A stretch of 21,605 nt of DNA, taken from IMG/VR virus record IMGVR_UViG_2681813318_000014; one strand, given 5' to 3'. The stretch's first letter is position 1; each line of letters opens with the position of its first letter. A program made the position numbers and the translations under genes. The notes under the pieces are model-generated. The model saw only the letters and a list, made by a program, of their open reading frames with translations, ran no database searches and was not told where the DNA came from. Source of the DNA: a virus. Its lineage: Duplodnaviria > Heunggongvirae > Uroviricota > Caudoviricetes. Of the stretch, positions 2,966-18,784 are shown piece by piece.

Positions 2966-3062
2966 AAAAGAATGGTTGGGTGTATGAGATAGGTTCTATC
3001 GAATCTATAACACGGGGAGAGATTATCGAGTGATATCGGTAGTTTCTCCCTTTTTTGTATGT

Positions 3063-3129: not shown

Positions 3130-3147
3130 AGAGGTGAAAAAATATGA

Positions 3148-5316
3148 ATGGCACAATTTAAAGTTGATGATTTTCTGATTGAGTTAAGTTTTAACTCTCA
3201 GAAAGTTTTAAAAGGCTTGGAAAAAGCCGAGAAACAAACGATGCAGGTAGCATCACGAATTGAGAAGCGATTGAATAAAGCTTTTAAAGTTAACCCTACG
3301 CCTTTAAATGATTCTCTCAAGGTCATGGAAAGAAATGTCGATAAAACTGTTTCCAAGATTGAGCAGCGTCTTAAAAACACTAGAGTGTTTAAGATTAAAA
3401 CGGAAATTGAGGATACTTTAAAGCCACTTAGACAACCAAGACAGCCACGAATTAGCGGCAACAGAGCAATCACAGCAGCTTACTCAGCGAATATGAGCAA
3501 GCTAAAAGGCTTTGACCCTATTTTGCAGAAATACATCAAATCTCAGTTTTACGGGCTATCTGCTAAAGCCGGGTCAATGGATAATTCAAAATTCAATGAG
3601 AAGCTGGCTCAGCTAAATGCTTCAGTCAGAGAAGCAATTGCTAAAGCTAAAGGTCATACATCCACCAGCATTAATAATACAAGCGACGCATTTAATAATC
3701 TTGCAAGCAATGCAATTAAGTTATCTGGTGCATTTTACTCTGTGATGGGTGCTCTTAACGCTTACAAGGCCATTATGAATGCAGGTCTTAAACGAGATTC
3801 CGCACAGAGAGCCGCTAAGTTTGTACTTGGTGATAAAGCATCTGAGGCTGAAACATTTATCAGGGGACTGGCTGACAAGACAGGTCTTAATATCTCTGAA
3901 GGGCTATCAAGCTACGCTAAGTTTGCAGCAGGTGCTCAGGGTTCTATGTCACAGGAACAGACACAGGAGCTATTTGGTAATGCAACGGCTATGAGTCGCT
4001 TAATGGGGCTTAGTAATGATGAGCTAAACGGCATTTTGAAAGCTTTTGAGCAGATGGCTTCTAAGGGCAAGATTCAGGCTGAAGAATTACGTGGGCAGTT
4101 AGGTGACCGTATGGCTGGTGCATTTAAGCTATTCGCTGAAGCACTGGGTATGACTGCTACAGAGCTTGATAAAGCGATGAAAGACGGGAAGATTTTAAGT
4201 AGTGATACTCTCCCTAAAGTCGCTAAACAGATGGGCTTGATGATTGATAAAGCGGGTGGCTGGGCTGAAGTCGCTAAGAGCACCCAGACAGCTTTAGGTA
4301 AGTTAGCAAACAACTGGGATGATACGATGGTGAAAATCTTCTCAGGTTCACAGGATGAGCTAAACGGCTTCTTATCCAGCCTGAGTAACCTGCTTAGTGA
4401 AATGGGGATGAGTTCTTCTATCGCTGGTGATGCTATCGGTGGGCTTATCGACATGCTTAAAGCTGGTGTAGATGATATTCGCGTATTCAATAACACCATT
4501 GAAGGCTGGATTTTACAGGTTAAAAAGTTCTATTACAGCCTTGATGACACTAAACGAAAACTACTTGATGAAGTCGGTGATGGTTTTATCAATTTTGTCA
4601 AAGGTCTTGCTATAGCGTTATCTGCAAAGACGCTATTCAGTGCCACTACAGGGGTTATGAACCTGACAAGAGCAATCACAACGTTAGGTACAAGAGCTAA
4701 TCAGGTGGCTGGTCAGGTAGCTACTGGTAAAGGTGGTGAAAAACTGAAAGGTGTAGCTGGTGGTGTAGGTAGTGCTCTTGCAATTGGTTATGCTGATGAC
4801 GGTTATGAAACAGCGTTAGCATTAGCTTCAATGATTCCACAAATCAGAGGTGTCACCCTTGGTTTATATGCATTGAAGAAAGCACTGGATTTTATGAATC
4901 AGGAAGTAGTCAAAAACGCTAACATGCATCCATCTGGGGTAGGTGTGGGTAGTGACTTTAATCCTGTGTATTCTGGTGACCCTAATAAACCGAATATGAT
5001 TAATGAAGGGTGGATTAAAATTTTTAGTTCAATGGGTGAATTGTTTAACAATGCCACAATGAATATTGCAAGATTCAATCATCCAGAATTAAACAACATT
5101 AAGCAAGAAGCATCACTAACCAGCGCAGATATTCAAAGTCTGAGGGATGAAATCTCTGCTTTAAGTAAGCGTATTCAGGAGCCTGTGAAAGTTTCACTTG
5201 GTGGTGAAGTTGCCATTAAACCAGATGAAACATCGTTTATGACCTTTAGCGGTAATATTTACGACCAATACGCAGAAGCTACGCTATTAAGTTCATCATT
5301 TCCAGAAGATGATTGA
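3148..5316 (+). CDS. tape-measure-domain protein (phage tail length tape measure-like), 722 aa
   Basis: Segment LKAFEQMASKGKIQAEELRGQLGDRMAGAFKLFAEALGMTATELDKAMKDGKILSSDTLP matches the conserved tape-measure motif as recalled from memory; central Gly/Ala-rich hydrophobic segments; GAGGTG RBS upstream. Confidence 0.7.
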   Translation: MAQFKVDDFLIELSFNSQKVLKGLEKAEKQTMQVASRIEKRLNKAFKVNPTPLNDSLKVMERNVDKTVSKIEQRLKNTRVFKIKTEIEDTLKPLRQPRQPRISGNRAITAAYSANMSKLKGFDPILQKYIKSQFYGLSAKAGSMDNSKFNEKLAQLNASVREAIAKAKGHTSTSINNTSDAFNNLASNAIKLSGAFYSVMGALNAYKAIMNAGLKRDSAQRAAKFVLGDKASEAETFIRGLADKTGLNISEGLSSYAKFAAGAQGSMSQEQTQELFGNATAMSRLMGLSNDELNGILKAFEQMASKGKIQAEELRGQLGDRMAGAFKLFAEALGMTATELDKAMKDGKILSSDTLPKVAKQMGLMIDKAGGWAEVAKSTQTALGKLANNWDDTMVKIFSGSQDELNGFLSSLSNLLSEMGMSSSIAGDAIGGLIDMLKAGVDDIRVFNNTIEGWILQVKKFYYSLDDTKRKLLDEVGDGFINFVKGLAIALSAKTLFSATTGVMNLTRAITTLGTRANQVAGQVATGKGGEKLKGVAGGVGSALAIGYADDGYETALALASMIPQIRGVTLGLYALKKALDFMNQEVVKNANMHPSGVGVGSDFNPVYSGDPNKPNMINEGWIKIFSSMGELFNNATMNIARFNHPELNNIKQEASLTSADIQSLRDEISALSKRIQEPVKVSLGGEVAIKPDETSFMTFSGNIYDQYAEATLLSSSFPEDD

Positions 5317-5325
5317 TTTAACGGT

Positions 5326-5392
5326 GTTCTACGTGAATAAAGCAAAGTTAATACCCACACCAAAAATTATTTTTTACGTAGCTCACGCTTAA
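5326..5392. repeat. about 65-bp conserved element, copy B, immediately upstream of the 5473 gene
   Basis: CTACGTGAA...ATACCCACACCAAAAATTATTTTTTACGTAGCTCACGCTTAA; same core and same internal inverted repeat as copy A. Confidence 0.6.
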
Positions 5393-5472
5393 CAGAGAAA
5401 ACACTTATATATCAAAGGCTTGGTTAAAAATGATTAAAATACACTAAGCCTTTGAAATCAAAGGAGAATTTA

Positions 5473-6261
5473 ATGATTTTTAGCAATCAAATCCGCTACA
5501 GTGGCAAAGATGGCATCTATTTCCACTTAAGAGATAATGTAGATGCCTTCTTAACTTTATCAGCTACTGAAAACATGGAATTTGACAGCCCTATGCAGGT
5601 CACTACACAAAACATGCAATCAGGGCAAACCGTCACAGATAATGTGCAAAGAGCACCCAGAACAATCACTATTAGTGGTGTCGTTGTAGTTGGCTATGAA
5701 GGGAGCTTATTATTAACTCGTCAGGGCCAGTTAGTAGAAAACTTCATCGACACTCTTGAAAGCTGGAGAGACCAGAAACAAATTATTTCAGTGATTTGTA
5801 AAGATGGTATCAAGATTGATGACTCAATTATTACCAACTTTAAAGCCTCTAAAGATGTTACTATCTCTAACGGTCTTCGTATCCAGCTAACTTTTCAGGA
5901 AATTAACTTCAAAGCCGTTGTGGGTCAAACTGATATTTCAGCAGCAACTGGAAAGACCGCTACTACAAATGATGGTGGTGTGACCAGTAAGAAGAATGCA
6001 GGTAACGTGACCACTGAACGCAATAACGCGCCTATGCTATCGTGCAAAGAGTTAATGAGTATTAACGATGTATCCGGTTACGCTCCAGCTATCAGAAATG
6101 ATATTCTCGATGCTCAGATTAAATGTAATAAGGCTTGGAAGCTGGATTATTCAGACTTAACAGAAGCTGAAAAAACCAACGTCACCAATGCTAACAGTAA
6201 CGCTGGTCGAGTAGCTTCAAAGCTTAAAAAGTACTCAGTGAACCCTCACAAAAAATACTAA
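5473..6261 (+). CDS. hypothetical beta-rich protein (262 aa), possibly a distal tail component
   Basis: ATG 5473 with AAGGAG 6 nt upstream (the track start at 5452 is a TTG with no RBS); position directly after a tape-measure gene; functional call is by position only. Confidence 0.5.
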
Positions 6262-6303
6262 ATCTCTACTACATCAACATCTATTAAACCCCTCTCAGTG
6301 ACT

Positions 6304-7782
6304 TCAGAAAGCGACTGTATAGCCTCTGTAACGTTGTCTGAGGGGTTTTCTGTTATTGGTAGGGTGGATTGACTTACTATTGTGAAAAGTTACTTTACAG
6401 CGACGTTTAGCAGTATTTAAAACGACCTCTTTAACAGCACTTTTGATTATCAGTTGTGCTTCAATCCTTCCCGCCTTTGTAGTCAAGTCACAATCAGACA
6501 AACACCCCACATCAATAGATTTAAGGCGTTGTGTCTCCTTCTCGATATCCGCATCAACCTGTGATAGCTCACCTTTTAACTGTTTTAGTTTGCTGGTAAT
6601 AGCGGACAAGTCTTCAATTTCAAGTGATAGCTGTACCAGCTTTTCAATATTGCTTGAGATGTGTTCACGGTGTAGCCTCAACATATCTATGGTATTCGTC
6701 ATATCGCTATCAAATCGGTCAAGACGAGATAGCAGGGTAAGTAATGTACCATCGGTTTGCTTACGTGACAGCCCTTTAGCACTACAACGGTTTTCATTAC
6801 GAAGAGGACAACGATAAATCCCGCTTCTTGTATCGCTAAAGCCTGTGATAATCAAAGCATGACCACATTCAGAACAACGGATAACACCTTTAAAGAGATT
6901 CACACTCAATGGTTTATCTGAAACAGGTTTTCTTCCATAACGAGAATATGATAGTTGCTGGACTTTGTAGAAATCAGTCTCAGGGATGATAGAGGGGAAA
7001 TAACCAGTTATCTCCTCACAGCCTTTAGGTGTGAAGTAACCAATTACAGAGCGATTCTTCAGAAGGTCTTGCACTGAGGTTTGACCAAACTTACCCGCTT
7101 TATATTGGTTAAGTGTCTGGTGACCTTCATCATTAAGAGTCCTGACAATCTCCCAGATAGACTTACCCTCTAACCGTAGCTGAAAGCACCTCTTCACAGT
7201 CTCCACTTTCTCAGGTATCACAGAGAAGCTTTTACGGTCATCATTCAGCCTTAACCATGCAGGACAACGCTTAGAAATCTTGATACCTTCAGAGATGAGT
7301 TCTTTTTTACGGTTCCATGCAGCTTGTATACGCTCAGACTTCCTCAAACTCTCCTCATGCGACCGCTGCATTATCAGAATGCTTTTAATCAGAGCTAACG
7401 GGTCTTTAAGAGATTCCCTTGTGTAATGTTCACCATCGGACAAGGTGACTACATCTACACCAGAGCGAAGAATGTTTCGTAATAGCTCACTTGCTCGGTC
7501 TACGTTCTGGCGTGACAAACGGTCAAGAGATTCTATCAAGAGCGTATCACCAGCTTTAACAAGCCCTTTCTCGATAGCGGTTAAAAAGTCACCTAAGCCA
7601 CCTTTCAAGTGCTTACCAGTAAACCCGCTAACGCCTAAATCACGGAAGGATAAATCTTGGTCAAGGTAGTACTCAGGATGAGCCTTAAGCCAGTCATTAA
7701 CCATCTTAGACTGTCTGCGTAGTGAATCACCTCGGGATTGCTTCTCAGATGAAAACCTGATGTAAGAAATGGCACGTTTCAT
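6304..7782 (-). CDS. large serine recombinase (integrase/resolvase family), 492 aa
   Basis: N-terminal resolvase-type catalytic region with Ser in AISYIRFSSEKQ; long recombinase domain; Cys-rich zinc-ribbon-like segment CSECGH...CP; C-terminal coiled coil; GGTGAGGTG RBS; at the edge of the AT-rich block next to chromosomal DNA. Confidence 0.85.
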   Translation of the reverse strand: MKRAISYIRFSSEKQSRGDSLRRQSKMVNDWLKAHPEYYLDQDLSFRDLGVSGFTGKHLKGGLGDFLTAIEKGLVKAGDTLLIESLDRLSRQNVDRASELLRNILRSGVDVVTLSDGEHYTRESLKDPLALIKSILIMQRSHEESLRKSERIQAAWNRKKELISEGIKISKRCPAWLRLNDDRKSFSVIPEKVETVKRCFQLRLEGKSIWEIVRTLNDEGHQTLNQYKAGKFGQTSVQDLLKNRSVIGYFTPKGCEEITGYFPSIIPETDFYKVQQLSYSRYGRKPVSDKPLSVNLFKGVIRCSECGHALIITGFSDTRSGIYRCPLRNENRCSAKGLSRKQTDGTLLTLLSRLDRFDSDMTNTIDMLRLHREHISSNIEKLVQLSLEIEDLSAITSKLKQLKGELSQVDADIEKETQRLKSIDVGCLSDCDLTTKAGRIEAQLIIKSAVKEVVLNTAKRRCKVTFHNSKSIHPTNNRKPLRQRYRGYTVAF

Positions 7783-7832
7783 TGTTCACCTCACCTAATA
7801 ACCCCTAGATTGTATCGCTTTAGGTGGTGTAT

Positions 7833-8234
7833 TTAAACGTGTCTAATAAAAATCACCCGATTAACGCCGCGCTGATGTAAACCGCGATTAAGCGTTTGTT
7901 CCTCTTCCCCTTTGGCGAAAAACTGTGGATGGCGGACTTCCACACCATAATTAAATTCGCCAGGGAGAGAATCGAGAAAATGCCAAAGCGCAGGCAGCTC
8001 CCGTGGGCCGAATGTGGCAGGCAGTTGCAGCCAGTATTGCCCAATGCGCGGAGCCAACGGTGACATGCGGGTCAAAAATTCAGTCACTAAATCATCGCAA
8101 TGTCGTAATGCTGCCTGATGCGAAATGGTCGCCGGAAACTTAAAACAGAAGCGGAAGTCATCTGTGGTCTGTTCACGCCAGCGCAGGACAACCTCGGGTT
8201 TCGGCAGGGCGTAAAGCGTGGTGTTGCCCTCCAC
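7833..8234 (-). pseudogene. yecE: fragment of a chromosomal DUF72-family gene (consistent with yecE), missing both ends
   Basis: GC-richer composition than both flanks; sequence CVEGNTTLYALPKPEVVLRWREQTTDDFRFCFKFPATISH fits the conserved DUF72 N-proximal pattern as recalled; no native start (frame open into the integrase 3' end); only about 133 codons versus roughly 270 expected. Confidence 0.5.
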
Positions 8235-8260
8235 GCAGTTAACATGACGGGTATTAAGGA

Positions 8261-9574
8261 TTAACTTACTGATTTTAATAAGCCTCTGGTGTCACTTTGG
8301 TGACTATGGGGCATCATTGGGACATAATCTGTCAGCTTCTGATTCAGCATTGCGATCTGTTCTGCATTGCTGTCAGTCATCCATGCTCCGTATACATTGA
8401 ATACCATCTGGGCACTTGCATGGCCCATCTGGCTGGCAATGAAGCTTGGGTTTGCTCCGGCAGATAATGACCAGCACGCATAAGTGTGTCGTGACTGGTA
8501 TGCCTTTCGATGCCTGATCCCTGCACGCTTAATGGCTGTTTCCCATGAGTCACCTACAGAATCGACTTTGTAGACAAAACCTACCTGTTCGCTTTTTCTA
8601 ACCACTTGAGGGTTAAACACGAAAGTACATTCATGGTTCACTGAACGTCCATATTCACGTAGTTGCACCTTGATGTTGTACTGCTTACCCAGTCTTGTCA
8701 TTTCAGCCTGATTTTTCAGGACACTGATAGCGGGCTGGATAAGGTGCACAACCCTGTTTGTGCTTGCTTCAGTTTTCGGTAGAGTGAACTCACCAAGTTT
8801 CGTATAATTGCGCCTGATGGTAATTGTTCCTGCCTTCAGATCGATATCTTCCCAGGCCAGGGAGACCAGTTCACCGTGACGCATTCCTGTGTACACAGCC
8901 AATGACCACAGGTTTTTCGTCTGCTGATGTCGGCAAGCATCTATCAGGCGAATAAATTCGTCACGAGTTAGCGGATCTGGCTCTGCCCTGGCTCTTTTAA
9001 GAGGCTTAATTCCCTGGAAGGGATTTGCTTCTAAGTAACCGTGATCTGCAGCAAACTGAAACATTCCAGCGATTGTCGTCATGTAATAATTTACAGTAAC
9101 GACGCTCCGTCCTTTTGCTGCTGCTTTGTTTTTCGTTGAATTCTGATACCCGGTAAGCAAATCTTTCCTGATATACAGCAATTCCTCTTTGGTTACCGAT
9201 GACACCAGTCTACTGCCTCCAATTTTCGGAACCATCGTTCTTGCAACGGATTCATAGCGATTGAATGCATTTGCAGAGATTTCCATTCGTTTCAGATCCA
9301 GCCACTTTTCTTCAAGTTCCTTCACCGTAATTTCTTTTTTACTTACCCCAAAAGCCTGAAGGTTGGGGGAGTCAGGGAACTGTGCAGCATAATCAAAGCT
9401 TCCTGTGCGGATGGCAAAACATACTGATGTCCGCAGTTCCCCGGCGATCTTCCTGTTCTTGGCAGTGTCAGGGACACCAAGATTTTCCCTGACACGTTTA
9501 CCGTTAAAATTAAACCAGATGCGTAATGTGCCGCCGTGGTTTTCGACGCCTGTTGGATATTTGACTTTATCCAT
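8261..9574 (-). CDS. int: phage tyrosine integrase (437 aa)
   Basis: C-terminal catalytic-region residues consistent with a tyrosine recombinase (AYQSRHTYA..., ...VYGAWM); N-terminal arm-type domain; GGAGGT RBS; immediately downstream of an excisionase-like gene on the same strand. Confidence 0.85.
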   Translation of the reverse strand: MDKVKYPTGVENHGGTLRIWFNFNGKRVRENLGVPDTAKNRKIAGELRTSVCFAIRTGSFDYAAQFPDSPNLQAFGVSKKEITVKELEEKWLDLKRMEISANAFNRYESVARTMVPKIGGSRLVSSVTKEELLYIRKDLLTGYQNSTKNKAAAKGRSVVTVNYYMTTIAGMFQFAADHGYLEANPFQGIKPLKRARAEPDPLTRDEFIRLIDACRHQQTKNLWSLAVYTGMRHGELVSLAWEDIDLKAGTITIRRNYTKLGEFTLPKTEASTNRVVHLIQPAISVLKNQAEMTRLGKQYNIKVQLREYGRSVNHECTFVFNPQVVRKSEQVGFVYKVDSVGDSWETAIKRAGIRHRKAYQSRHTYACWSLSAGANPSFIASQMGHASAQMVFNVYGAWMTDSNAEQIAMLNQKLTDYVPMMPHSHQSDTRGLLKSVS

Positions 9575-9629: not shown

Positions 9630-9866
9630 TCACCTGGGTTGTTTGTTTTTCATTGAGGCGACCCAGGCATCTATTGCTTTTCTGTTATACATACATTCAC
9701 TGGAAGGCTTTGGATTACCGTCTGGTGATACGTGAATATACTCTCTTCCAACCATCCAGCATTCTTTCCGGGCCCGAAGAATTGTGCCTGGTTTGAGCCC
9801 GGTAATTGCGATAAGAACGCTTTCACAAACCCATTCATTGGGAGCCAGTTGAATCACATTGCCCAT
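9630..9866 (-). CDS. xis: excisionase-like protein (78 aa)
   Basis: Small basic protein directly upstream of int on the same strand; TGAGG RBS; resembles the lambdoid-prophage excisionase-like family from memory. Confidence 0.55.
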   Translation of the reverse strand: MGNVIQLAPNEWVCESVLIAITGLKPGTILRARKECWMVGREYIHVSPDGNPKPSSECMYNRKAIDAWVASMKNKQPR

Positions 9867-10024: not shown

Positions 10025-10267
10025 TTACTTCCTTTTTATGGCTCGTAATTTTTTCAGGTGCTTTTCCTGCTCAGTGTCCGCGAGAATTTTGCGGTACTCC
10101 TGGTGGTCAATATGTTCGAACAGGCAGTTTAACTCACCAATGCGTACCCGCCCGGATCGTCCGTCCATCCGTCGAAAGAACACTGAGTGCTCAGTGATGC
10201 GAGTAATCACCACGGGGTATCCGGCTCTGTCCGTGTATATCTGACCGCGTTGAATCAAAGCGAACAT
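10025..10267 (-). CDS. hypothetical phage protein (80 aa)
   Basis: ATG 10267; sits in the tightly packed early-left operon. Confidence 0.5.
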   Translation of the reverse strand: MFALIQRGQIYTDRAGYPVVITRITEHSVFFRRMDGRSGRVRIGELNCLFEHIDHQEYRKILADTEQEKHLKKLRAIKRK

Positions 10268-10271
10268 GTGG

Positions 10272-10355
10272 TTATCCCCAGCGGCAAATCGAATACACCA
10301 TCAGCGTCACCGCCATCGCAATTCCTACCGTTGTTAATGCTTCAGGCCAGGTCAT
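10272..10355 (-). CDS. possible 27-aa hydrophobic peptide ([27 protein letters not shown])
   Basis: ATG overlaps upstream stop (ATGA at 10352-10355); GGAGG RBS 10 nt upstream; single transmembrane-like segment. Confidence 0.3.
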
Positions 10356-10696
10356 CGTAAAATATCCTCCACGCTTATCAGTCCGTTCCGCTCCAGATAA
10401 CTCATCGCCTTATCCGGTAATTTGCAGTCTGGCTTCGCTTTCCTCAGTTGCCAGGTTAACTGCTTTACCAGCATGGTTAACTCATCGACCAGACGCTGAT
10501 ATCCCACTGGTTTGTATTCATGCAATTTACCGGCTGGCTCTGCTGCCAGCGATACCAGTGCGATTTCCAGAACAGCAATATCCATCTTATATGTGCGGAT
10601 GATGTCATGGTCGATTGTACCCGGTATGCACAGTCTCTGTGCTTCAATAGTCTCCTCTGCGTGAGCTATTAACTGCTCTCTGGTAAAAGTCGTCAT
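10352..10696 (-). CDS. hypothetical phage protein (114 aa), paralog of the next gene
   Basis: ATG 10696 in ATGA overlap with upstream stop; AAGGGG RBS; shares the [10 protein letters not shown] motif and a 29-bp DNA repeat with 10693..10878. Confidence 0.55.
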
Positions 10697-10878
10697 GCCG
10701 TAGCCCCTTCTTGATATTTTTCAAACCAGAACACAACCGGCTCTGCTTCCAGCGATACCAGTGCAATTCGTGCCAGTTCTTCCGCTTCTTCTGCTGGCAG
10801 TACAACGTTGCTACCCGGTCCGTATGTTTCGCGCCACTGCTTGATTGTCAGCAGTCGCCCTTTGGTAATAGTGATCAT
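10693..10878 (-). CDS. hypothetical phage protein (61 aa), paralog of 10352..10696
   Basis: ATG 10878 in ATGA overlap; AAGGAA RBS; motif [10 protein letters not shown]. Confidence 0.5.
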
Positions 10879-11390
10879 GCCGCGTTTCCTTCTTTCTTAT
10901 TAACAATCACACCGTCATATATTTCATTAAGGTGCCCTCTCAACTCCATGCGCCTTAATGCAGATAACATGTAATCGCATTCAACCTGCTTATTCCCAGT
11001 AAATGGCTTATCGTCAGGATTACCCCAACAGCAATTACCCCTGGGCCATCCATGTACTTTCCGTACTCTTCCGTTAACAACGTGAAGTAATCCCCAGCCG
11101 GGAGGTAAATCCTCAACTGAAATAATTTCCGGCTCACTAATAAAGAATCGCCAGTCGCCCATGCCAAGTGAGGGATTTTTACGGAAACGCTTTTTTCTAT
11201 CTGCCAACAAGTCAGCACGAGAACACTTCGCCTCTATCAGGCATGATGCTGAATTTCTGAATCCCATAGCATCTGGCTGTTCTCCGGTACTGGTTACAGC
11301 AACAAAGCGGTCATGAAAGCAAACCTTGAACCCGTTGCGCTTAAGGAACTTGTACGCAATCTGACAGAGTTCGTGGTGTGTTAACGCCAT
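10875..11390 (-). CDS. putative PD-(D/E)XK nuclease, MmcB-like (171 aa)
   Basis: Start moved to ATG 11390 (AAGGAG 6 nt upstream; track start 11423 is TTG); motif DAMGF...CLIEAKCSRADLLAD...DWRFFISEP fits the D...E-x-K nuclease core of the MmcB-like family as recalled. Confidence 0.55.
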   Translation of the reverse strand: MALTHHELCQIAYKFLKRNGFKVCFHDRFVAVTSTGEQPDAMGFRNSASCLIEAKCSRADLLADRKKRFRKNPSLGMGDWRFFISEPEIISVEDLPPGWGLLHVVNGRVRKVHGWPRGNCCWGNPDDKPFTGNKQVECDYMLSALRRMELRGHLNEIYDGVIVNKKEGNAA

Positions 11391-11391
11391 A

Positions 11392-11877
11392 TCACTCTCC
11401 TTTGATGCGAATGCCTGTTGCAATGCTGTTTATGATGCTGTCAGTGCATGGGGTAGAAAGCTGGGCATCTCCAGCAATTTTCATGACCTCAACATCTGCA
11501 TATCGAATACCGAGGTGTATCAGACCGGCTATGCCTGACTTAAGCCGAGCATTTTCCATAAATAGAACTTTTGCCCGCTGTTTTTCTGCTTCAAGCTCAA
11601 CGCGCAGCTTCCCTACCGTTAGCGCAATATCCTCGTTCTCCTGATCGCGGCTTTTGATGTATTGCAGGTTTCTTTCCCGTTCATCCAGCAGTGCCAGCAC
11701 GGTTTCTGGTCCGGTCAGAAATTTGAAGGCGTTGAGCGCATCAATATCCACACCGTAATCTTTAAGTTCCTGTTCACTTAACAAGTCATCATCAGCTGGC
11801 AACATTAACAGGCGTTCCATTGCTGGAATTGCACGTTCCGCCACCTCACGCAGTGCCTGGTAATTAATTTCGCTCAC
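11392..11877 (-). CDS. Ea22-like early protein (161 aa)
   Basis: GTG start at 11877 with AAGGAGG RBS 6 nt upstream; N-terminus MSEINYQALREVAE is characteristic of the Ea22-like family in lambdoid phages; GTGA overlap with upstream stop. Confidence 0.55.
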   Translation of the reverse strand: MSEINYQALREVAERAIPAMERLLMLPADDDLLSEQELKDYGVDIDALNAFKFLTGPETVLALLDERERNLQYIKSRDQENEDIALTVGKLRVELEAEKQRAKVLFMENARLKSGIAGLIHLGIRYADVEVMKIAGDAQLSTPCTDSIINSIATGIRIKGE

Positions 11878-12380
11878 TGGTTGCCTCCTTTGCGAAGCTG
11901 GGCAGCAAAGTCAACTAACCACTCAGTCATTTCAACCTTCCCTACCAGGTCTGAACCAGGGTACATACAGCAATCACTCTGCGCCGCTTTGAAATCCTTA
12001 TACTCATATTCTTGGGCCACCAGATTTTTTGCAGCTTCTATAGCAGCGTCCACCCCCTGCGCCCGGACTTCAGCCAGGAAAGCATCAGTGGTTGGCGTTT
12101 CAGGTATCTGTCTCCTCATCCGTTCTATTGCATGATTGAACCCGAAGTCTTCCGCGAGAGATACGTCATCCATATTGTCATTGTCATCCTCAATATCCCG
12201 TGATTCTGGAATTGCAGACTTTATTCCCGCATTCTCCGCTGCCAGCGCCGCGCACTTGGCCTCAAGAGCGGCAACCACTTCCTGATGGTCTTTGTACTTA
12301 ACGTATGAGCCGGAGATGTCATCACCTTCGGTGTTTAGCCATGCGTCATTGCAATTCACTGCGTAGGTTCTGATGCTCAT
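11874..12380 (-). CDS. acidic hypothetical phage protein with coiled-coil segment (168 aa from the internal ATG)
   Basis: ATG 12380 with GGGAGAG RBS, in ATGA overlap with the stop of 12377..12559; the track's longer 208-aa version begins at an upstream ATG without an RBS. Confidence 0.5.
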   Translation of the reverse strand: MSIRTYAVNCNDAWLNTEGDDISGSYVKYKDHQEVVAALEAKCAALAAENAGIKSAIPESRDIEDDNDNMDDVSLAEDFGFNHAIERMRRQIPETPTTDAFLAEVRAQGVDAAIEAAKNLVAQEYEYKDFKAAQSDCCMYPGSDLVGKVEMTEWLVDFAAQLRKGGNQ

Positions 12381-12559
12381 GTTGATGCTCTCCCGCCCCT
12401 GACAGACGCCAGGCCAGTCAATAAAGTATCCGCAATGCCTACCCTCAGACGTGCGCGCAGGATAAATGCCGTTATGACCCGGCAAATATATGCTACCCAT
12501 TCATCTTGCGTTGCCTGTTCCGCCGCCTCGCGCAGTGCCTGATAGTCAATCTTGCTCAC
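12377..12559 (-). CDS. short Ea22-like N-terminal-module protein (60 aa), possibly a recombination remnant
   Basis: GTG 12559 with AAGGAGG RBS; the first about 22 residues (MSKIDYQALREAAEQATQDEWVA) match the Ea22-like N-terminus, the rest is low-complexity; its 5' region is a DNA paralog of the 11877 gene start. Confidence 0.35.
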   Translation of the reverse strand: MSKIDYQALREAAEQATQDEWVAYICRVITAFILRARLRVGIADTLLTGLASVRGGRAST

Positions 12560-12860
12560 TGGCAGCCTCCTTTGCCGGGATTTCTAACTTTTGAGTGGTT
12601 GTATCAAATTCAAACAACTTAACCACGTCATCAAACAGGACATAATCACCATCAGGATCTTCAGTCATATCTGCGCCACAATCCTGACCGCACGAGTCGC
12701 AACCATCCATATCAAGCTCGTATCGCTTCAGGTTTGCGATATTTGATAAATTCAGCGCCAGTACAGCCAGGTCATAAACCTCTTCGGCAGTGACATCGCT
12801 GTTCAGTCCCATTTCATGGCGATATATGATTTTTTCTACTCGTTGTTTTGTGATCGTCAT
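12546..12860 (-). CDS. hypothetical phage protein (104 aa)
   Basis: Start moved to ATG 12860 (GGAGTG RBS 9 nt upstream); acidic C-terminus. Confidence 0.5.
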   Translation of the reverse strand: MTITKQRVEKIIYRHEMGLNSDVTAEEVYDLAVLALNLSNIANLKRYELDMDGCDSCGQDCGADMTEDPDGDYVLFDDVVKLFEFDTTTQKLEIPAKEAASEQD

Positions 12861-13131
12861 TTTTCTCTTCACTCCGATATACAAGGATTACTACACCCCC
12901 TCTGCTGATTGCGCGAGCTGGATCCCCTGGTTCCATGCCGTCAATTCCGAAGGCTTCGGAAAACGCATTCATTGCCTTCTGGCGTTCATCCTGCTTACGG
13001 CGTTTATTCCATTTTTTCAGGAACAACAGCGACAGCCACCGTCCGCTGCAGAACACGATGTAAAAATAACCAAGGAGCGCCAGGCCGACATTCAGGGCCG
13101 TTTCTATGGTTAGTTGTGAGTCAGTTGCCAT
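12814..13131 (-). CDS. small predicted membrane protein (105 aa)
   Basis: ATG 13131; N-terminal transmembrane-like segment LNVGLALLGYFYIVFCSG followed by a basic stretch KKWNKRRKQDERQK. Confidence 0.4.
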   Translation of the reverse strand: MATDSQLTIETALNVGLALLGYFYIVFCSGRWLSLLFLKKWNKRRKQDERQKAMNAFSEAFGIDGMEPGDPARAISRGGVVILVYRSEEKNDDHKTTSRKNHISP

Positions 13132-13369
13132 TTCTTACCTGTTTAAGTAACTGGTTGAACATAACACTTAGGGGATTGCTGTATCCAAACGGCAGATTGT
13201 TTACGCAGTACAGAATCATTTTGTTTTTTTCTCCAGTTCGTACTATTAACCCATTCCACAATAACCGTGATAATTCATTACTGATAGAAGTTGCGCTTCT
13301 TCCAAGTGCGAGGGATATATCTTCTCTACTGCAATCTGGATTTTCCTGGATATACTCGATAACGGTCAT
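13121..13369 (-). CDS. small winged-helix/HTH-like protein (82 aa)
   Basis: Start moved to ATG 13369 (AAGGGA RBS right after the upstream stop); segment CSREDISLALGRSATSISNELSRLLWNGLIV looks like an HTH. Confidence 0.45.
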   Translation of the reverse strand: MTVIEYIQENPDCSREDISLALGRSATSISNELSRLLWNGLIVRTGEKNKMILYCVNNLPFGYSNPLSVMFNQLLKQVRNGN

Positions 13370-13379
13370 GTGGTCCCTT

Positions 13380-13961
13380 TTACTTAATATCTGTTTCGGA
13401 TTGCATGCCATGAGTATTCATTTCGTTAATAATTTCATCCAGAAGGATTTCAAGCCCTTCTCGACCCATATCTGAAAGAATGAAACCTTTATCAGGGGAA
13501 GTAGTGAGCATTTTCTGATAAAGAAACAGCGCTCTTCCCATTCCTTCAGCTTCGCCGTATTTTTGAATTAAATTCCATTCAATATACTGTTGTAAGGCAA
13601 ATCGAATGGGGCCGGGATATATCGTCATAAACCCATACATCCCGTTATATACCACGGCGTGTTCAGTTGTTCCGTGTTCATTCAGGATATCAATTGTGCC
13701 GTTCTTGTCTTCTTCTTCGTTGATGAATGTCGTCACATACAACCATCGCCACTGAGCAACCTTCATCTCAACCGGAAGTTTACCCAGTAATCCTGCTTCG
13801 TCGGCTTGCGCCAGACACTGAAGGATACGTAAACCTCGCACATTAGGAGTATCGAATTCTCCGGCATCCAGACGACGTATGGCGTCGTGATAATCAATCG
13901 TCATACTGCCAGTTCGTATACCATTGGCTGTTGCTTCAGCCTGGAATTCATCGTATTGCAT
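13380..13961 (-). CDS. hypothetical protein (193 aa)
   Basis: ATG 13961 with GAGGAA RBS 8 nt upstream; no recognised motif. Confidence 0.55.
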   Translation of the reverse strand: MQYDEFQAEATANGIRTGSMTIDYHDAIRRLDAGEFDTPNVRGLRILQCLAQADEAGLLGKLPVEMKVAQWRWLYVTTFINEEEDKNGTIDILNEHGTTEHAVVYNGMYGFMTIYPGPIRFALQQYIEWNLIQKYGEAEGMGRALFLYQKMLTTSPDKGFILSDMGREGLEILLDEIINEMNTHGMQSETDIK

Positions 13962-13966
13962 GATAT

Positions 13967-14155
13967 TTATTCCTCATCTTCATCTTCATCTGCTGGTGCA
14001 ATAACGTCATATCCTGCCCTTTCTGCAATAAACAGGAATGTTGAAAGAGTTCCTACAAGTTCATCGTCATGAACATGGCGAATGAATATTACTTTCCCGT
14101 TTTTGATGGTCAGCAATATTCTGGTTTGTTCGTGTTCTGCTGTTTTCTGATGCAT
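13967..14155 (-). CDS. small acidic hypothetical protein (62 aa)
   Basis: ATG 14155 with GGGAGA RBS; C-terminal DEDEDEE tail. Confidence 0.45.
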   Translation of the reverse strand: MHQKTAEHEQTRILLTIKNGKVIFIRHVHDDELVGTLSTFLFIAERAGYDVIAPADEDEDEE

Positions 14156-14157
14156 TA

Positions 14158-14271
14158 TTATCTCCCGTATGCTTTACGCAGAAATAAGCAGGCAATATGC
14201 ATGTAATTTTCACCGTATTGTGCAATAAGGCAGGCGGTCTTGTGTGATGCCATATTCTTTATAAAAGTCAC
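14158..14271 (-). CDS. possible 37-aa ORF in the 195-bp intergenic region
   Basis: GTG start with AGGAGG RBS 7 nt upstream; stop overlaps the RBS of the next gene; weak. Confidence 0.2.
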   Translation of the reverse strand: MTFIKNMASHKTACLIAQYGENYMHIACLFLRKAYGR

Positions 14272-14304
14272 AATAAAGCCTCCTGTGGATTAAGGTTGTA
14301 ACAA

Positions 14305-14346
14305 TCCCCGGCGATAAAACCGCAATAAACGTTCAGGGCATATTTG
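14305..14346 (-). terminator. terminator-like hairpin after the 121-aa gene
   Basis: Minus-strand reading: GCAATAAC...GTTTATTGC stem starting 4 nt after the stop, followed by GGTTTTAT. Confidence 0.35.
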
Positions 14347-14349
14347 TTG

Positions 14350-14715
14350 TTATTGCGCTAATTCTTTTTCGGCAGCAGCTTTTGTATACTCACATGCAAA
14401 ACTCAGAATTTCGCTGCCGAGTGTTTTCGTTTCGTGATTACTGGACATATGTAATACCTGTGTTGCATGCAATAAATGATAAACATTTACCGCAAATGAA
14501 TCAGGCTCCAGACAAATGCCTTCGTAATTATCTTGCTGTGAGGTTGTTTCTGTCATTGCTCCTGAAGTGCATGCGAGCCTGTTTTTGACAATTCTCTTTT
14601 CTCTAATCACTATATCGGCAACATCTATTGCCTTTACAACCTCCGGGAGAAGTTCCGGGTTTGTATAATCAAAGTCATCAACATGGAGAACAGTTATGTT
14701 TTCGAACTTTTTCAT
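14350..14715 (-). CDS. hypothetical protein (121 aa), second gene of the cI-adjacent module
   Basis: ATG 14715 with GAGGAAG RBS 4 nt upstream; no recognised motif. Confidence 0.55.
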   Translation of the reverse strand: MKKFENITVLHVDDFDYTNPELLPEVVKAIDVADIVIREKRIVKNRLACTSGAMTETTSQQDNYEGICLEPDSFAVNVYHLLHATQVLHMSSNHETKTLGSEILSFACEYTKAAAEKELAQ

Positions 14716-14846: not shown

Positions 14847-15392
14847 CTATTGGTATTGGTTCTTCCGCAGAAGAGCTTCGCGAGATAAGGGGCAAACTTG
14901 TTGAGATGCGTCATGGTGTTGCTGCTCCTCACTTTTTGGTTGCTCCGGAGGAGTAACCTCACCAGTTAACAGCCACATCGGATCGCAGCCAAGAATATTT
15001 GCCAGTGGGATAAGCATACTGATAGTTGGTTCATACTCTCCGCTCTCCCACTGGATGATAATTTCTTCATCGAGATCGAGCAGCCTGGCGAGTTCGGCGG
15101 TTGTTAAGCCGCAGGCTTCGCGTTGGGTGCGAAGGTTAACCAGCCAGCTTTCAGGGAAGGATTGTTTTTGTTGTGCAGGAGAAGCAGCAGATAGAGCATA
15201 TTCATGGATAAATTCCATTACCTCAATGCCCAGTTCCTTTGAGCGAGCACAATCCAGAAGATGGAATGTGCGTACAGCACTTAGCAAATTTGCAATATTT
15301 AATGCAAAGGAATCAAGTTCTAAGCCCTTAAGCGTAACACAGCCGCAGTTGATAAAATTAGTTGTTTCTGGAGTTGCTTTTAGTGTCTTCAT
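14847..15392 (-). CDS. two-domain protein with C-terminal XRE-type helix-turn-helix (181 aa from ATG 15392)
   Basis: HTH segment LTTAELARLLDLDEEIIIQWESGEYEPTISMLIPLANILGCDPMWLL; the track start at 15422 is a TTG, the first ATG is at 15392; the N-terminal 90 residues are unassigned. Confidence 0.55.
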   Translation of the reverse strand: MKTLKATPETTNFINCGCVTLKGLELDSFALNIANLLSAVRTFHLLDCARSKELGIEVMEFIHEYALSAASPAQQKQSFPESWLVNLRTQREACGLTTAELARLLDLDEEIIIQWESGEYEPTISMLIPLANILGCDPMWLLTGEVTPPEQPKSEEQQHHDASQQVCPLSREALLRKNQYQ

Positions 15393-15444
15393 ATATCCGC
15401 CAACAATTTTAAATTGAATCAAATCAAGTTATAATTGATGGTGC

Positions 15445-15473
15445 GATATTATGTTTTGGGAAACAGGCTGTCA
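15445..15473 (-). promoter_or_regulatory. PL-like early-left promoter
   Basis: Minus strand TTGACA (complement of 15468-15473), 17-bp spacer, TAATAT (complement of 15445-15450); near-palindrome ATCAAGTTATAATTGAT at 15423-15439 just downstream, operator-like. Confidence 0.45.
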
Positions 15474-15503
15474 AGAAAAAATTGATATCGTATATTTCAG
15501 GCA

Positions 15504-15537: not shown

Positions 15538-16227
15538 CTAACCAAATCTGTTTATGTTGAATGGTACTGATGAGATCACTTTAGACTGGATATAAAGCAG
15601 AGCTAACCCCTCTTTTTCGATGCTCCATGGTTGATAATTGGGGTTATCAGATAACACCATGATTTTGCTTCCAATTTTTTGAAGCCTTTTCACGTAGCAT
15701 TCTCCATCAAAACAAAATGCATAAATACCATCGCCATCAAAATAAGTTACTGTCTTATCAAGAAAAAGAAGGTCGCCAGGTGAGATTGTGGGAGCCATAC
15801 TGTCTCCTCTGGCGTTACCTATTTCTATATTTTTGAATGCCCGATTTCCAACAAGACGTCGGGCATATTCAGGATCAAGTTCTATTGAGCGCACTACATC
15901 TATCAAGTCACCACGGACATGAGTTCCATCACCGCAACTAAACTCAACATCAAGGACATTAAATACGACGCTATCTGTTCTTGTCTGGTGTTTCTCTTGC
16001 GAGGAAAAGGTTGGTGAGGAGTCTTCACCTAAGAACCAGGATTGTGGATAACCGCTAATCTCTGATAAATGCGCGAGCTTATCACTCCGTGGAAATGTTT
16101 TTCCTGTTGTCCAGTACTGCACTGATTGCGCACTCACACCTAACTTGCGGGCCAGTTGAGCCTGAGTCCATCCTTTTGCTTTCAGCATCGCGGCTATTCG
16201 ATTTTCCGTGTTTTTGACGTTCTTCAT
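15538..16227 (-). CDS. cI: prophage repressor, cI-like (HTH plus LexA-type S24 peptidase domain), 229 aa
   Basis: N-terminal HTH (WTQAQLARKLGVSAQSVQYW); C-terminal autocleavage domain with Ser in GDSMAPT and Lys in VKRL; divergent from a cro-like gene; start moved to ATG 16227 (track start is TTG). Confidence 0.85.
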   Translation of the reverse strand: MKNVKNTENRIAAMLKAKGWTQAQLARKLGVSAQSVQYWTTGKTFPRSDKLAHLSEISGYPQSWFLGEDSSPTFSSQEKHQTRTDSVVFNVLDVEFSCGDGTHVRGDLIDVVRSIELDPEYARRLVGNRAFKNIEIGNARGDSMAPTISPGDLLFLDKTVTYFDGDGIYAFCFDGECYVKRLQKIGSKIMVLSDNPNYQPWSIEKEGLALLYIQSKVISSVPFNINRFG

Positions 16228-16233
16228 GACCAA

Positions 16234-17847: not shown

Positions 17848-18232
17848 TCACTCAACATCAATAACGGGGAGCTGTTTCGCATAAAACGGCTCCGAAACAT
17901 CCAAGAACAGTTCTAAAGATATCAGCAGCTATATGATCATTTCAAGACCAAATATTGATTCTGCAATTTCGGGACGTTACACTGTCTCTGCACCTTATAA
18001 AGCGGGTGCCGGGGGTCGCAGCCCGGAATTGTCAACGGCGATATATGACGCGCCAGCGTCTTTTTTATCGTCCGCGCTCACGCACGCCAGAATTATGGTG
18101 GGCTGGGCAGGGGAGCCGAAAGGCTCGCCGGTCTCCGTTGACGCCGGTACTGCGAACCCTGTTCAGTCTGCCACCAGTGAGTTTCGCAGCTCCGGTGGTG
18201 GAAGTTTTCCACAGTCAACGGAGGCTGCCATC

Positions 18233-18784
18233 ATGGCTACGATCCCAACCCTCACTCAACCTGAAATTGCCATCGTTGATGGTCAGGCTGTTACTTCATC
18301 CCTGGCTGTTGCCAACTTCTTCTCCAAGCGTCATGACGATGTACTGAAAAAGATCCGCACGCTTGAATGCTCCGCATCATTCACTGCCCGCAATTTTTCG
18401 GTGAGTGATTACACCGATTGCACAGGCCGCAAACTACCTTGCTATCAAATCACCCGTGATGGCTTCGCGTTCCTTGCTATGGGCTTTACTGGCAAACGTG
18501 CAGCCCGGTTCAAAGAGGCATACATCAACGCCTTTAACCTGATGGAGAAGAGTTTATCAGGTGCCGATGCGTCTGATATGTCAGCTGTCGCACGAAACGC
18601 CAGAGGCGTATACCTGCATTTGCGTGAAATCCATCAAATCTGGACAAGCCAGCTTTATCCAATGCTTAAGGCCGTTGAATCTCCGCTGGCTAGCAAACTG
18701 TACGACCGTGTTGGTGATGCTGTTTTTGGCGCTGCACTTGTTGATTCCAGGCTGAATGGTTCTGACAAGGAGGTTCGCCCATGA
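18233..18784 (+). CDS. second Rha-family-like regulatory protein (183 aa)
   Basis: ATG 18233 with GGAGG 9 nt upstream; motif AVTSSLAVANFFSKRHDDVLKKIRTLE; the track's longer version (from 17933) adds a GC-rich low-complexity extension with no RBS. Confidence 0.65.
   Translation: MATIPTLTQPEIAIVDGQAVTSSLAVANFFSKRHDDVLKKIRTLECSASFTARNFSVSDYTDCTGRKLPCYQITRDGFAFLAMGFTGKRAARFKEAYINAFNLMEKSLSGADASDMSAVARNARGVYLHLREIHQIWTSQLYPMLKAVESPLASKLYDRVGDAVFGAALVDSRLNGSDKEVRP

What the first reader, a model, noticed from the sequence alone, without database searches (positions are those of the whole stretch)
10875..11390. MmcB-like PD-(D/E)XK nuclease in the early-left operon
The motif arrangement (acidic residue, then E-A-K, then a Cys/Trp-rich C-terminal region) suggests a small DNA nuclease. 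Encoded among early genes, it could act in recombination, host DNA processing or counter-defence.
Basis: partly seen in the sequence, partly recalled or inferred. Interest (0 to 1): 0.4.

Follow-up and report, generated by a model that had tools for sequence, protein, structure and literature searches.

The report
Phage MmcB-like PD-(D/E)XK nuclease gene
The flagged stretch is a real, strongly conserved 171-codon prophage early gene whose product is predicted to be a small DNA-cutting enzyme related to the bacterial DNA-repair protein MmcB; this is a sound but fairly ordinary annotation of a gene that databases leave unnamed or mislabel as broken.

Summary
Window 10875-11390 is exactly one minus-strand ORF (ATG 11390, TGA 10875, 171 aa). 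It has a strong Shine-Dalgarno and is packed between an Ea22-like gene and the next gene in the leftward early operon of a lambdoid E. coli prophage.

Pfam, NCBIfam and PADLOC give no hit, and all 308 close homologues are named "hypothetical".
- The AlphaFold model (pLDDT 85, pTM 0.80) has the alpha-beta-beta-beta-alpha-beta nuclease core.
- Profile-profile alignment to an MmcB alignment gives 98% probability (E 5e-14) and is colinear over 154 columns.
- D/E27, D40, E53 and K55 are kept in 44-46 of 46 diverse relatives.

The Cys/Trp-rich tail is lineage-specific, not a metal site.

The family is large (3332 clusters at 50% identity). It occurs in temperate and virulent phages, P1/P7 plasmids and conjugative elements, has no fixed partner gene, and sits among replication and recombination genes. 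dN is about 0.07 with dS saturated.

The likely function is a stand-alone metal-dependent DNA endonuclease acting on damaged or branched DNA. The exact substrate is unknown.

The parts
10875..11390 (-). Coding sequence of the 171-aa MmcB-like PD-(D/E)XK protein (ATG 11390-11388, TGA 10877-10875)
   Evidence: ORF list and translation. The exact protein is on >=1000 contigs. Purifying selection is strong. AF2 model has pLDDT 85.
11397..11402 (-). Shine-Dalgarno AAGGAG, 6 nt upstream of the ATG. The spacer contains the TGA stop of the upstream Ea22-like ORF.
   Evidence: Read directly from the sequence.
11310..11312 (-). Codon for D27, the first acidic residue at the end of strand beta1. It aligns with the invariant E28/E29 of MmcB.
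   Evidence: D in 30/30 close relatives and E or D in 44/46 distant relatives. Position in the hhalign alignment.
11271..11282 (-). E37-Q-P-D40: the 'PD' motif at the start of strand beta2
   Evidence: D40 in 46/46, E37 in 45/46, P39 in 45/46. Strand 41-45 in the model. D40 aligns with the invariant D39 of MmcB.
11226..11234 (-). E53-A-K55: the '(D/E)xK' motif at the end of strand beta3
   Evidence: E53 in 45/46 and K55 in 45/46. Strand 48-54 in the model. The motif aligns with E53-C-K55 of MmcB/3dnx.
11181..11222 (-). S57-R-x-D60-(F/L)-x-x-D64-x-K-K67-x-F-R70: a conserved charged helix after the catalytic lysine, shared with MmcB (SRADFQxDxK). It probably contacts DNA or phosphate.
   Evidence: D60 in 46/46; D64, K67 and R70 each in 45/46. 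Helices 58-65 and 68-71 in the model. Alignment to 3dnx.
11148..11165 (-). G76-M-G78-D-W-R81 leading into strand beta4. R81 aligns with the invariant R76 of MmcB.
   Evidence: G78 in 46/46 and R81 in 46/46. hhalign.
11085..11105 (-). P96-x-G-W99-G-L-L102 motif entering strand beta5. It aligns with the P-x-E-(S/T)-G-L-(L/I) motif of MmcB.
   Evidence: W99 in 45/46, G100 in 44/46, L101 in 45/46. hhalign.
10950..10982 (-). C-terminal helix E137...S-A-L-R146-R147. It aligns with the A-A-R-R-L helix of MmcB.
   Evidence: E137 in 46/46 and R146 in 43/46. Helix 134-150 in the model. Global hhalign.
11392..11877 (-). Upstream, translationally adjacent Ead/Ea22-like gene (context). The same Ea22-target pair is present in phage P7 (upf88.3/upf89.0).
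   Evidence: PHROG hits. RefSeq annotation of near-identical prophages. P7 map.
15538..16233 (-). HTH + peptidase S24 (CI/LexA-type) repressor (context). It makes the leftward early operon damage-inducible.
   Evidence: Pfam PF01381 and PF00717.
15446..15474 (-). Candidate leftward early promoter (TTGACA-17-TAATAT, 10/12 matches), just downstream of a terminator-like hairpin at 15526-15510
   Evidence: Consensus scan only. The number of promoter-like sites does not exceed shuffled controls, so this is tentative.

Best explanation
The ORF encodes a small, single-domain nuclease of the PD-(D/E)XK (restriction-endonuclease-like) fold. It belongs to a large mobile-element-borne sister group of the MmcB-like family (PF06319, COG5321).

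**Shown by computation:**
- The fold.
- Full-length colinear homology to MmcB.
- Near-universal conservation of the metal-binding and catalytic set D/E27, D40, E53, K55.
- Conservation of a charged helix (S57-R70), R81 and E137.
- Strong purifying selection.

**Inferred.** The acidic residues bind one or two Mg2+ ions and K55 positions the attacking water, so that the protein hydrolyses a DNA phosphodiester bond.

The gene sits in the repressor-controlled leftward early operon of an SOS-inducible lambdoid prophage, so it would be made immediately after induction. Elsewhere the family sits among replication and recombination genes of temperate and virulent phages. It has no obligatory partner and often coexists with RusA or NinG.

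The role I consider most likely is a stand-alone lesion- or structure-specific DNA endonuclease. It would process damaged or blocked phage DNA, for example crosslinked or stalled replication intermediates, as is proposed for SOS-regulated MmcB in Caulobacter. It would act in support of phage replication and recombination, not as the phage's main junction resolvase.

**Sub-confidences:** real expressed gene 0.95; PD-(D/E)XK fold and MmcB-like homology 0.9; active nuclease 0.75; damage/blocked-DNA processing role 0.3.
For: **Gene reality.**
- Exact ORF with a Shine-Dalgarno and operon packing.
- 928 of 5426 E. coli genomes carry it.
- The exact protein is on >=1000 contigs.
- dN 0.07 versus dS >2.

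**Fold.**
- AF2 pLDDT 85.4 and pTM 0.80, with elements H5-18, E22-25, E41-45, E48-54, H58-65, E80-85.
- Foldseek PDB hits are weak, but nearly all are PD-(D/E)XK nucleases.

**MmcB link.**
- The 3dnx fragment scores E 3e-32 on PF06319.
- The family profile hits 3dnx at E 2.8e-4.
- hhalign against the MmcB alignment gives 97.9% (E 6e-13) in local mode and 98.4% (E 5e-14, 154 columns) in global mode.
- BFVD hits include phage 'MmcB family DNA repair protein' entries at E 5e-7 to 1e-4.
- Weak hit to PHROG 5429 'DNA repair protein'.

**Catalytic residues.** Conservation counts are.

**Context.**
- S24 repressor.
- C1-controlled operon in P7.
- Next to the primase in Kuttervirus.
- Among exonucleases, RusA, SSB and Dam in Vibrio phage X29.
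- Neighbours across 29 loci include Ea22, DUF551, methylases, NinG, RusA and RdgC.

**MmcB biology.** MmcB is SOS-regulated, is a PD-(D/E)XK endonuclease, and protects against mitomycin C and cisplatin (PMC9578287; bioRxiv 10.1101/2022.06.10.495655).
Against: - No biochemical data exist for this family. To my knowledge MmcB's own substrate is also only hypothesised.
- The family also occurs in strictly virulent phages and next to F-type transfer genes. This does not fit a role tied specifically to SOS induction.
- No conserved partner or regulatory signal points to a substrate.
Confidence: 0.55

Rival explanations
1. It is a Holliday-junction or branched-DNA resolvase of the Hjc type. It would cut recombination or replication intermediates before packaging, as RusA or Rap/NinG do in other lambdoid phages.
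For: - 30 of 46 diverse relatives give sub-threshold hits to PF01870 Hjc (best E 1.3e-4), more than hit PF06319.
- The family profile hits Hjc chains at E 0.09-0.3.
- In many loci the gene lies in the nin-like region after the replication genes.
Against: - No family member reaches the Hjc gathering score (16.9 and 17.7 bits against 21.1).
- The gene coexists with dedicated resolvases in the same elements: RusA in the RM8385 prophage, a RusA-like gene in Vibrio phage X29, and NinG and RusA as near neighbours.
Confidence: 0.17
2. It is a conflict nuclease. It would be either a restriction-like or superinfection-exclusion enzyme, or a counter-defence or host-takeover enzyme that degrades host or competitor DNA (or a defence signal) early in infection.
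For: - It lies in accessory (moron-rich) regions of phages, P1/P7 plasmids and conjugative elements, and moves as a mosaic unit.
- DNA methyltransferases are immediate neighbours in several unrelated elements: L027, Vibrio phage D273, Pseudomonas phage Jeremy, and 4 of 29 loci within two genes.
Against: - No PADLOC defence model matches the protein or its neighbours in a meaningful way.
- No methylase is adjacent in the window or in most loci, and phage orphan methylases are common in these regions anyway.
- The protein has no extra sensor or specificity domain (171 aa, single domain).
- The repressed early-operon position argues against a lysogen-expressed defence role.
Confidence: 0.15
3. 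It is not a functional gene: a frameshifted pseudogene remnant, as RefSeq/PGAP annotates identical copies, or a catalytically dead DNA-binding relic.
For: PGAP annotates only a 179-nt 'frameshifted' hypothetical pseudogene at this position in four complete genomes with near-identical (three of them identical) sequence. One distant relative (P0147) has lost E53 and K55.
Against: - The 171-codon frame is uninterrupted.
- It has a strong Shine-Dalgarno.
- It is conserved at full length from Enterobacterales to Flavobacterium.
- It is under strong purifying selection.
- It keeps all catalytic residues.
Confidence: 0.03

Closest known systems
MmcB-like DNA repair protein family (Pfam PF06319, formerly DUF1052; COG5321; structure 3dnx, SPO1766 of Ruegeria pomeroyi; Caulobacter crescentus MmcB)
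   Same: - Similar size (MmcB-like proteins about 130-165 aa; this protein 171 aa) and a single domain.
- Same PD-(D/E)XK core.
- Colinear over 154 profile columns (98% hhalign probability).
- Shared signature D...E-x-K-x-S-R-x-D-F-x-x-D-x-K, then R before beta4, G-L-L, and a C-terminal A-x-R-R helix.
- Both are expressed after DNA damage: MmcB through LexA, this gene through an S24 prophage repressor (inferred).
   Different: - It does not score on the PF06319 HMM.
- Identity to 3dnx is only about 23%.
- It carries two insertions: K67-F-R-x-x-P-x-x-G-M-G, and the N119...K-P-F loop.
- It has an extra conserved E37 and an invariant E137.
- It is carried by phages, P1/P7 plasmids and conjugative elements of Gammaproteobacteria, Bacteroidota and others. 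Classical MmcB is chromosomal and mostly alphaproteobacterial.
- Its function is untested.
Archaeal Holliday junction resolvase Hjc (Pfam PF01870) and related AHJR-like / YraN (UPF0102) minimal nucleases
   Same: A minimal PD-(D/E)XK domain with an N-terminal helix, a PD motif and an ExK motif. Relatives give sub-threshold HMM hits.
   Different: - Hjc lacks the SRxDFxxDxK helix and the C-terminal RR helix.
- The family coexists with RusA or NinG resolvases.
PHROG families 9263 and 631 (phage proteins of unknown function)
   Same: The window protein is a clear member (E 1e-120 and 1.5e-93). This is the only library that already groups these proteins.
   Different: PHROGs assigns them no function. 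The link to MmcB-like nucleases is not recorded there, apart from a weak hit to phrog_5429 'DNA repair protein'.

Membership tests
PD-(D/E)XK (restriction-endonuclease-like) superfamily | Alpha-beta-beta-beta-alpha-beta core fold | tested here: met
   [not shown]
PD-(D/E)XK (restriction-endonuclease-like) superfamily | Acidic residue at the start of beta2 and (D/E)-x-K in beta3, conserved across the family | tested here: met
   D40 in 46/46, E53 in 45/46, K55 in 45/46, plus D/E27 in 44/46. Positions fall on the predicted strands.
PD-(D/E)XK (restriction-endonuclease-like) superfamily | Metal-dependent phosphodiesterase activity | not testable with these tools
   Needs purified protein and nuclease assays.
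MmcB-like (Pfam PF06319 / COG5321) | Scores at or above the curated gathering threshold (22 bits) of the PF06319 HMM | tested here: not met
   No hit even at E<=1 for the window protein. 13 of 46 relatives give weak hits (best E 2.9e-4). No NCBIfam model hits.
MmcB-like (Pfam PF06319 / COG5321) | Profile-level homology over the whole domain to bona fide members | tested here: met
   hhalign of A2 against A3 (PF06319 proteins): 97.9% in local mode; 98.4%, E 5e-14, 154 columns in global mode. The family profile hits 3dnx at E 2.8e-4.
MmcB-like (Pfam PF06319 / COG5321) | Structure closest to the family's solved representative 3dnx | tested here: met
   [not shown]
MmcB-like (Pfam PF06319 / COG5321) | Signature E-C-K-S-S-R-A-D-F-x-x-D-x-K after the catalytic strand | tested here: met
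   The window protein has E53-A-K-C-S-R-A-D-L-L-A-D-R-K66. The family consensus is ECKxSRxDFLADxKK.
MmcB-like (Pfam PF06319 / COG5321) | Confers tolerance to mitomycin C or cisplatin damage; SOS-regulated | not testable with these tools
   Only indirect evidence: the operon is controlled by an S24-type cleavable repressor.
Hjc Holliday junction resolvase (Pfam PF01870) | Scores at or above the PF01870 gathering threshold (21.1 bits) | tested here: not met
   No hit for the window protein. The relatives with listed bit scores (P0228, P0136) reach 16.9 and 17.7 bits. 30 of 46 relatives have weak hits.
Hjc Holliday junction resolvase (Pfam PF01870) | Serves as the element's junction resolvase, with no other resolvase present | tested here: not met
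   RusA is in the same prophage type. A RusA-like gene is in Vibrio phage X29. NinG and RusA are near neighbours.
Type II restriction-modification endonuclease | Adjacent cognate DNA methyltransferase | tested here: not met
   None is adjacent in the window or its near-identical prophages. A methylase lies within two genes in only 4 of 29 loci and in two phages.

The most novel reading that the evidence does not exclude
This is the founding example of a very large (over 3000 clusters), uncurated family of mobile-element nucleases. They would give phages and conjugative elements their own MmcB-type lesion-processing step, for example incision at interstrand crosslinks or blocked forks. A prophage induced by DNA damage could then repair and replicate its own damaged template independently of host repair. 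Alternatively, the same nuclease would be used against host or rival DNA.
Probability: 0.15. Interest if true: 0.55.

Novelty: new member of a known kind. Interest (0 to 1): 0.3.

Why it matters
- **Annotation gap.** The gene is in about one in six complete E. coli genomes, including Stx-converting phages and P1/P7-type plasmids. It has no Pfam or NCBIfam model, and PGAP writes it off as a 179-nt frameshifted pseudogene. Recognising it as an intact MmcB-like nuclease corrects that and defines a family worth a curated model.
- **Biology.** It adds a candidate DNA-processing enzyme to the poorly understood ea/b-region genes of lambdoid phages. It also offers a tractable E. coli system for studying the MmcB-like clade, whose biochemistry, as far as I know, is itself unknown.
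- **Limit.** A small PD-(D/E)XK nuclease in a phage accessory region is not in itself surprising.

Tried and rejected
- **Direct library scans.** Pfam, NCBIfam and PADLOC scans of the protein found nothing.
- **Narrow profile against PDB.** The close-homologue profile (A1) gave only E 0.3 to 3dnx. It needed the broader alignment A2.
- **AlphaFold database fold search.** The library was unavailable.
- **Foldseek against PDB.** It gave only weak hits and missed 3dnx.
- **Domain fusions as functional clues.** Longer relatives carried Ea22, DUF551, dATP/dGTP pyrophosphohydrolase or TniB segments. These look mostly like read-through or merged gene calls with neighbours, so they were not informative.
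- **Conserved partner gene.** Clustering ORFs from 32 loci found no neighbour shared beyond close relatives.
- **Locus search with the broad alignment.** This failed because no conserved peptide stretch was available. The closer alignment A1 worked.
- **Zinc- or metal-binding cluster in the Cys/Trp-rich tail.** Rejected, because the cysteines are not conserved.
- **Structured RNA or repeat in the interval.** There are no Rfam hits in the interval. The only repeats are one 30-nt direct repeat in the downstream ORFs and a weak 18-nt pair, probably by chance, with one copy inside the target ORF.
- **Lopes-Kulishev 2015 MmcB paper.** It is not in the library.
- **My own notebook error.** I first recorded the stop codon as TAA. 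It is TGA.

Full report
**1. The observation**

Window 10875-11390 is exactly one open reading frame on the minus strand: ATG at 11390-11388, TGA at 10877-10875, 171 codons.

- A longer TTG-started version (182 aa, from 11423) exists mechanically. However, homologues begin at M-(A/S/P)-L-T-H.
- A strong AAGGAG lies 6 nt upstream of the ATG (11402-11397).
- The upstream Ea22-like ORF (11392-11877) ends in TGA 1 nt before this ATG. The next ORF downstream starts with an ATG that overlaps the stop (ATGA). This is typical operon packing.

**2. It is a real gene, not a chance ORF**

- The DNA is found at 95-100% identity in 928 of 5426 complete E. coli genomes, with 248 of the places on plasmids, and in 349 phage records.
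- The exact protein is on at least 1000 contigs.
- 308 close homologues exist across Enterobacterales, all named "hypothetical protein".
- A profile search of 1.84 billion representatives finds 3332 clusters at E<=1e-3 and 2438 at E<=1e-10.
- Against homologues 91% identical at the protein level, dN is 0.07 while dS is above 2 or saturated. Selection on the protein is therefore strong.
- RefSeq/PGAP nevertheless annotates near-identical (three of them identical) copies in four complete genomes only as a 179-nt "frameshifted" pseudogene. The frame is uninterrupted, so this is an annotation artefact.

**3. The setting**

The window is an E. coli chromosome segment. The minus-strand map of the lambdoid prophage runs as follows:

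| Coordinates | Feature |
|---|---|
| 7833-8234 | truncated yecE |
| 8261-9574 | tyrosine integrase |
| 9630-9866 | excisionase |
| 10025-10267 | DUF4222 gene |
| 10352-10878 | two short ORFs |
| 10875-11390 | the target |
| 11392-12500 | two Ead/Ea22-like genes |
| 12546-14715 | several small genes of unknown function |
| 14847-15422 | HTH protein |
| 15538-16233 | HTH + peptidase S24 repressor |

- Rightward genes follow: a Cro/YdaS-like gene, Rha and Ash-Rha.
- A terminator-like hairpin (15526-15510) and a 10/12 promoter-like site (15474-15446) lie just downstream of the repressor gene.
- "Early-left operon" is thus the natural reading, although no transcript data were available.
- In phage P7 the 97%-identical gene (upf89.0) follows an Ead-like gene in an operon preceded by an annotated C1 operator. 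This supports repressor-controlled early expression.

**4. What the protein is**

Direct scans fail: there is no Pfam, NCBIfam or PADLOC hit. Only PHROG families of unknown function match (phrog_9263 at E 1e-120, phrog_631 at 1.5e-93), plus a weak hit to phrog_5429 "DNA repair protein".

*Structure.* An AlphaFold2 model built on 30 homologues is confident (pLDDT 85.4, pTM 0.80). It shows helix 5-18, strands 22-25, 41-45 and 48-54, helix 58-65, strand 80-85, further strands, and a long C-terminal helix 134-150. This is the PD-(D/E)XK core.

- I confirmed that 3dnx belongs to PF06319 "MmcB-like" (E 3e-32). The 2012 superfamily survey lists it as DUF1052/COG5321 (PMC3424549).

*Sequence profiles.*

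- A profile of 46 diverse relatives hits 3dnx at E 2.8e-4.
- hhalign against an alignment of bona fide MmcB-family proteins gives 97.9% probability (E 6e-13) in local mode. In global mode it gives 98.4% (E 5e-14) over 154 columns.
- The aligned features are D40 with D39, E53-x-K55 with E53-C-K55, the SRxDFxxDxK helix, R81 with R76, G-L-L, and the C-terminal A-L-R-R with A-A-R-R.
- BFVD returns phage proteins named "MmcB family DNA repair protein" at E 5e-7 to 1e-4.

*One discordant result.* Foldseek against the PDB gave only weak hits (none at E<=1e-3) and did not list 3dnx. Nearly all its top hits are nevertheless PD-(D/E)XK nucleases.

**5. Conserved residues**

Counts are from 46 relatives sharing 33-56% identity with the window protein.

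| Residue | Conservation |
|---|---|
| D/E27 | 44/46 |
| E37 | 45/46 |
| D40 | 46/46 |
| E53 | 45/46 |
| K55 | 45/46 |
| D60 | 46/46 |
| D64 | 45/46 |
| K67 | 45/46 |
| R70 | 45/46 |
| G78 | 46/46 |
| R81 | 46/46 |
| W99 | 45/46 |
| E137 | 46/46 |
| R146 | 43/46 |

The cysteines are not conserved (C9 in 7/46, C120 in 3/46, C138 in 3/46), and W122 is kept in only 14/46. The "Cys/Trp-rich C-terminal region" is a lineage peculiarity, not a metal-binding motif. The catalytic set is intact, so an active enzyme is expected. This is an inference.

**6. Distribution and neighbours**

- The family occurs in prophages of Enterobacterales, Shewanella, Alteromonas, Microbulbifer, Halomonadaceae, Oleiphilus, Solimonas, an alphaproteobacterium and a Flavobacterium.
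- It is in 642 phage records, including virulent Ackermannviridae and many Vibrio phages.
- Clustering ORFs around 32 loci found no neighbour shared beyond close relatives.
- Pfam scans of the two genes on each side in 29 loci gave Ead/Ea22 (5), DNA methylases (4), DUF551 (3), NinG (2), TraC/TraG (2), and single cases of RusA, RdgC, DUF968, dATP/dGTP pyrophosphohydrolase and NA37.
- In many loci the gene lies after the replication genes in a nin-like region.
- In Kuttervirus it immediately precedes the primase.
- In Vibrio phage X29 it sits among two exonucleases, DUF551, a RusA-like gene, Dam and SSB.
- In two genomes it abuts F-type transfer genes.

The theme is DNA metabolism on mobile elements, with no obligate partner.

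**7. Mechanism**

*Best-supported reading.* It is a stand-alone, metal-dependent PD-(D/E)XK endonuclease made early after induction or infection.

- By analogy with MmcB, I favour processing of damaged or blocked DNA in support of phage replication and recombination. MmcB is an SOS-regulated PD-(D/E)XK endonuclease that protects Caulobacter from mitomycin C and cisplatin. It is hypothesised to act with translesion polymerases on interstrand crosslinks (PMC9578287).
- The parallel is suggestive. This prophage's repressor carries an S24 self-cleavage domain, so the gene is switched on by the same DNA damage that the phage genome must survive.
- The step is inferred, and the family's presence in virulent phages and conjugative elements weakens it.

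*Rivals.*

- **Hjc-like junction resolvase.** More relatives touch the Hjc HMM than the MmcB HMM. However, the structural match is far weaker, and RusA or NinG coexist with the gene.
- **Conflict nuclease (restriction-like, exclusion or counter-defence).** Methylases are adjacent in a few unrelated elements, but there is no PADLOC match and no consistent pairing.
- **Pseudogene or dead protein.** This is contradicted by sections 1, 2 and 5.

**8. Comparison and novelty**

The protein works like, and is homologous to, the MmcB-like family. It fails the curated PF06319 threshold, has two insertions and extra invariant acidic residues (E37, E137), and is carried by mobile elements rather than alphaproteobacterial chromosomes.

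I file it as a new, diverged member of a known kind. It is correctly called "MmcB-like" but is not a curated member.

Interest is modest. A small PD-(D/E)XK nuclease in a phage accessory region is expected biology. The family's size, its lack of any curated model, and its systematic misannotation as a pseudogene do make it worth curating and testing.

Noticed in passing
window 10875-11390 (and L001 11338-11516, L002 3864-4042, L039 2838-3016, L040 11606-11784): RefSeq/PGAP annotates near-identical copies of this intact 171-codon gene only as a 179-nt 'frameshifted' hypothetical pseudogene in four complete E. coli genomes. This looks like a systematic annotation artefact.
   Followed up: partly
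window 20460/20461: The window shows a clean 4144-bp deletion relative to the 99.5%-identical prophage of E. coli AF39 (L002 13113-17256). It removes the ATP-binding loader, the replicative helicase, DUF968 and the antiterminator QuuD, and joins the LvrA-like gene directly to the ompC-like porin gene. The prophage here is probably defective.
   Followed up: partly
window 1-8260: The left third of the window is the end of a different prophage: tape measure 3148-5316, baseplate 5452-6261, large serine recombinase 6304-7782(-). It abuts a truncated yecE (7833-8234) and then the tyrosine integrase of the lambdoid prophage. Two prophages sit in tandem at the yecE site.
   Followed up: partly
window 17990-18178 (+): Rfam finds an isrK Hfq-binding RNA (17990-18066, 58.7 bits) and a C4 antisense RNA (18091-18178, 78.8 bits) inside or ahead of the Ash-Rha gene (17933-18784). 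This is a P1/P7-type c4-icd-ant-like immunity module in a lambdoid prophage.
   Followed up: no
window 10352-10878 (-): The two ORFs downstream of the target (61 aa and 114 aa) match the N- and C-terminal ends of one PHROG family (phrog_660, 193 aa). In other prophages the corresponding region is a single 252-aa 'phage protein' or a DUF551 gene. They share a 30-nt direct repeat (10536-10565 and 10739-10768). This looks like an internal deletion or a mosaic junction.
   Followed up: partly
window 13121-13411 (-): A 96-aa early-left ORF has a winged-HTH that matches MarR-type phage regulators (phrog_1687). It also weakly matches the DNA-binding ends of CARF/CasR/Csa3 models in PADLOC.
   Followed up: no
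L024 6480-9083, L030 3076-5625: In a Pantoea and an Alteromonas genome the homologue lies directly next to traC (F-type conjugation ATPase), with TraV, TrbI and DsbC nearby. The family is therefore also cargo of conjugative elements, not only of phages.
   Followed up: partly
L043 2254-4133; L042 2891-4082; L027 4384-6522: In three unrelated elements (Pseudomonas phage Jeremy, Vibrio phage D273, a Salinicola prophage) a DNA methyltransferase gene ends immediately before, or within about 110 nt upstream of, the homologue. In several phage records the homologue is mislabelled 'adenylosuccinate synthase'.
   Followed up: partly
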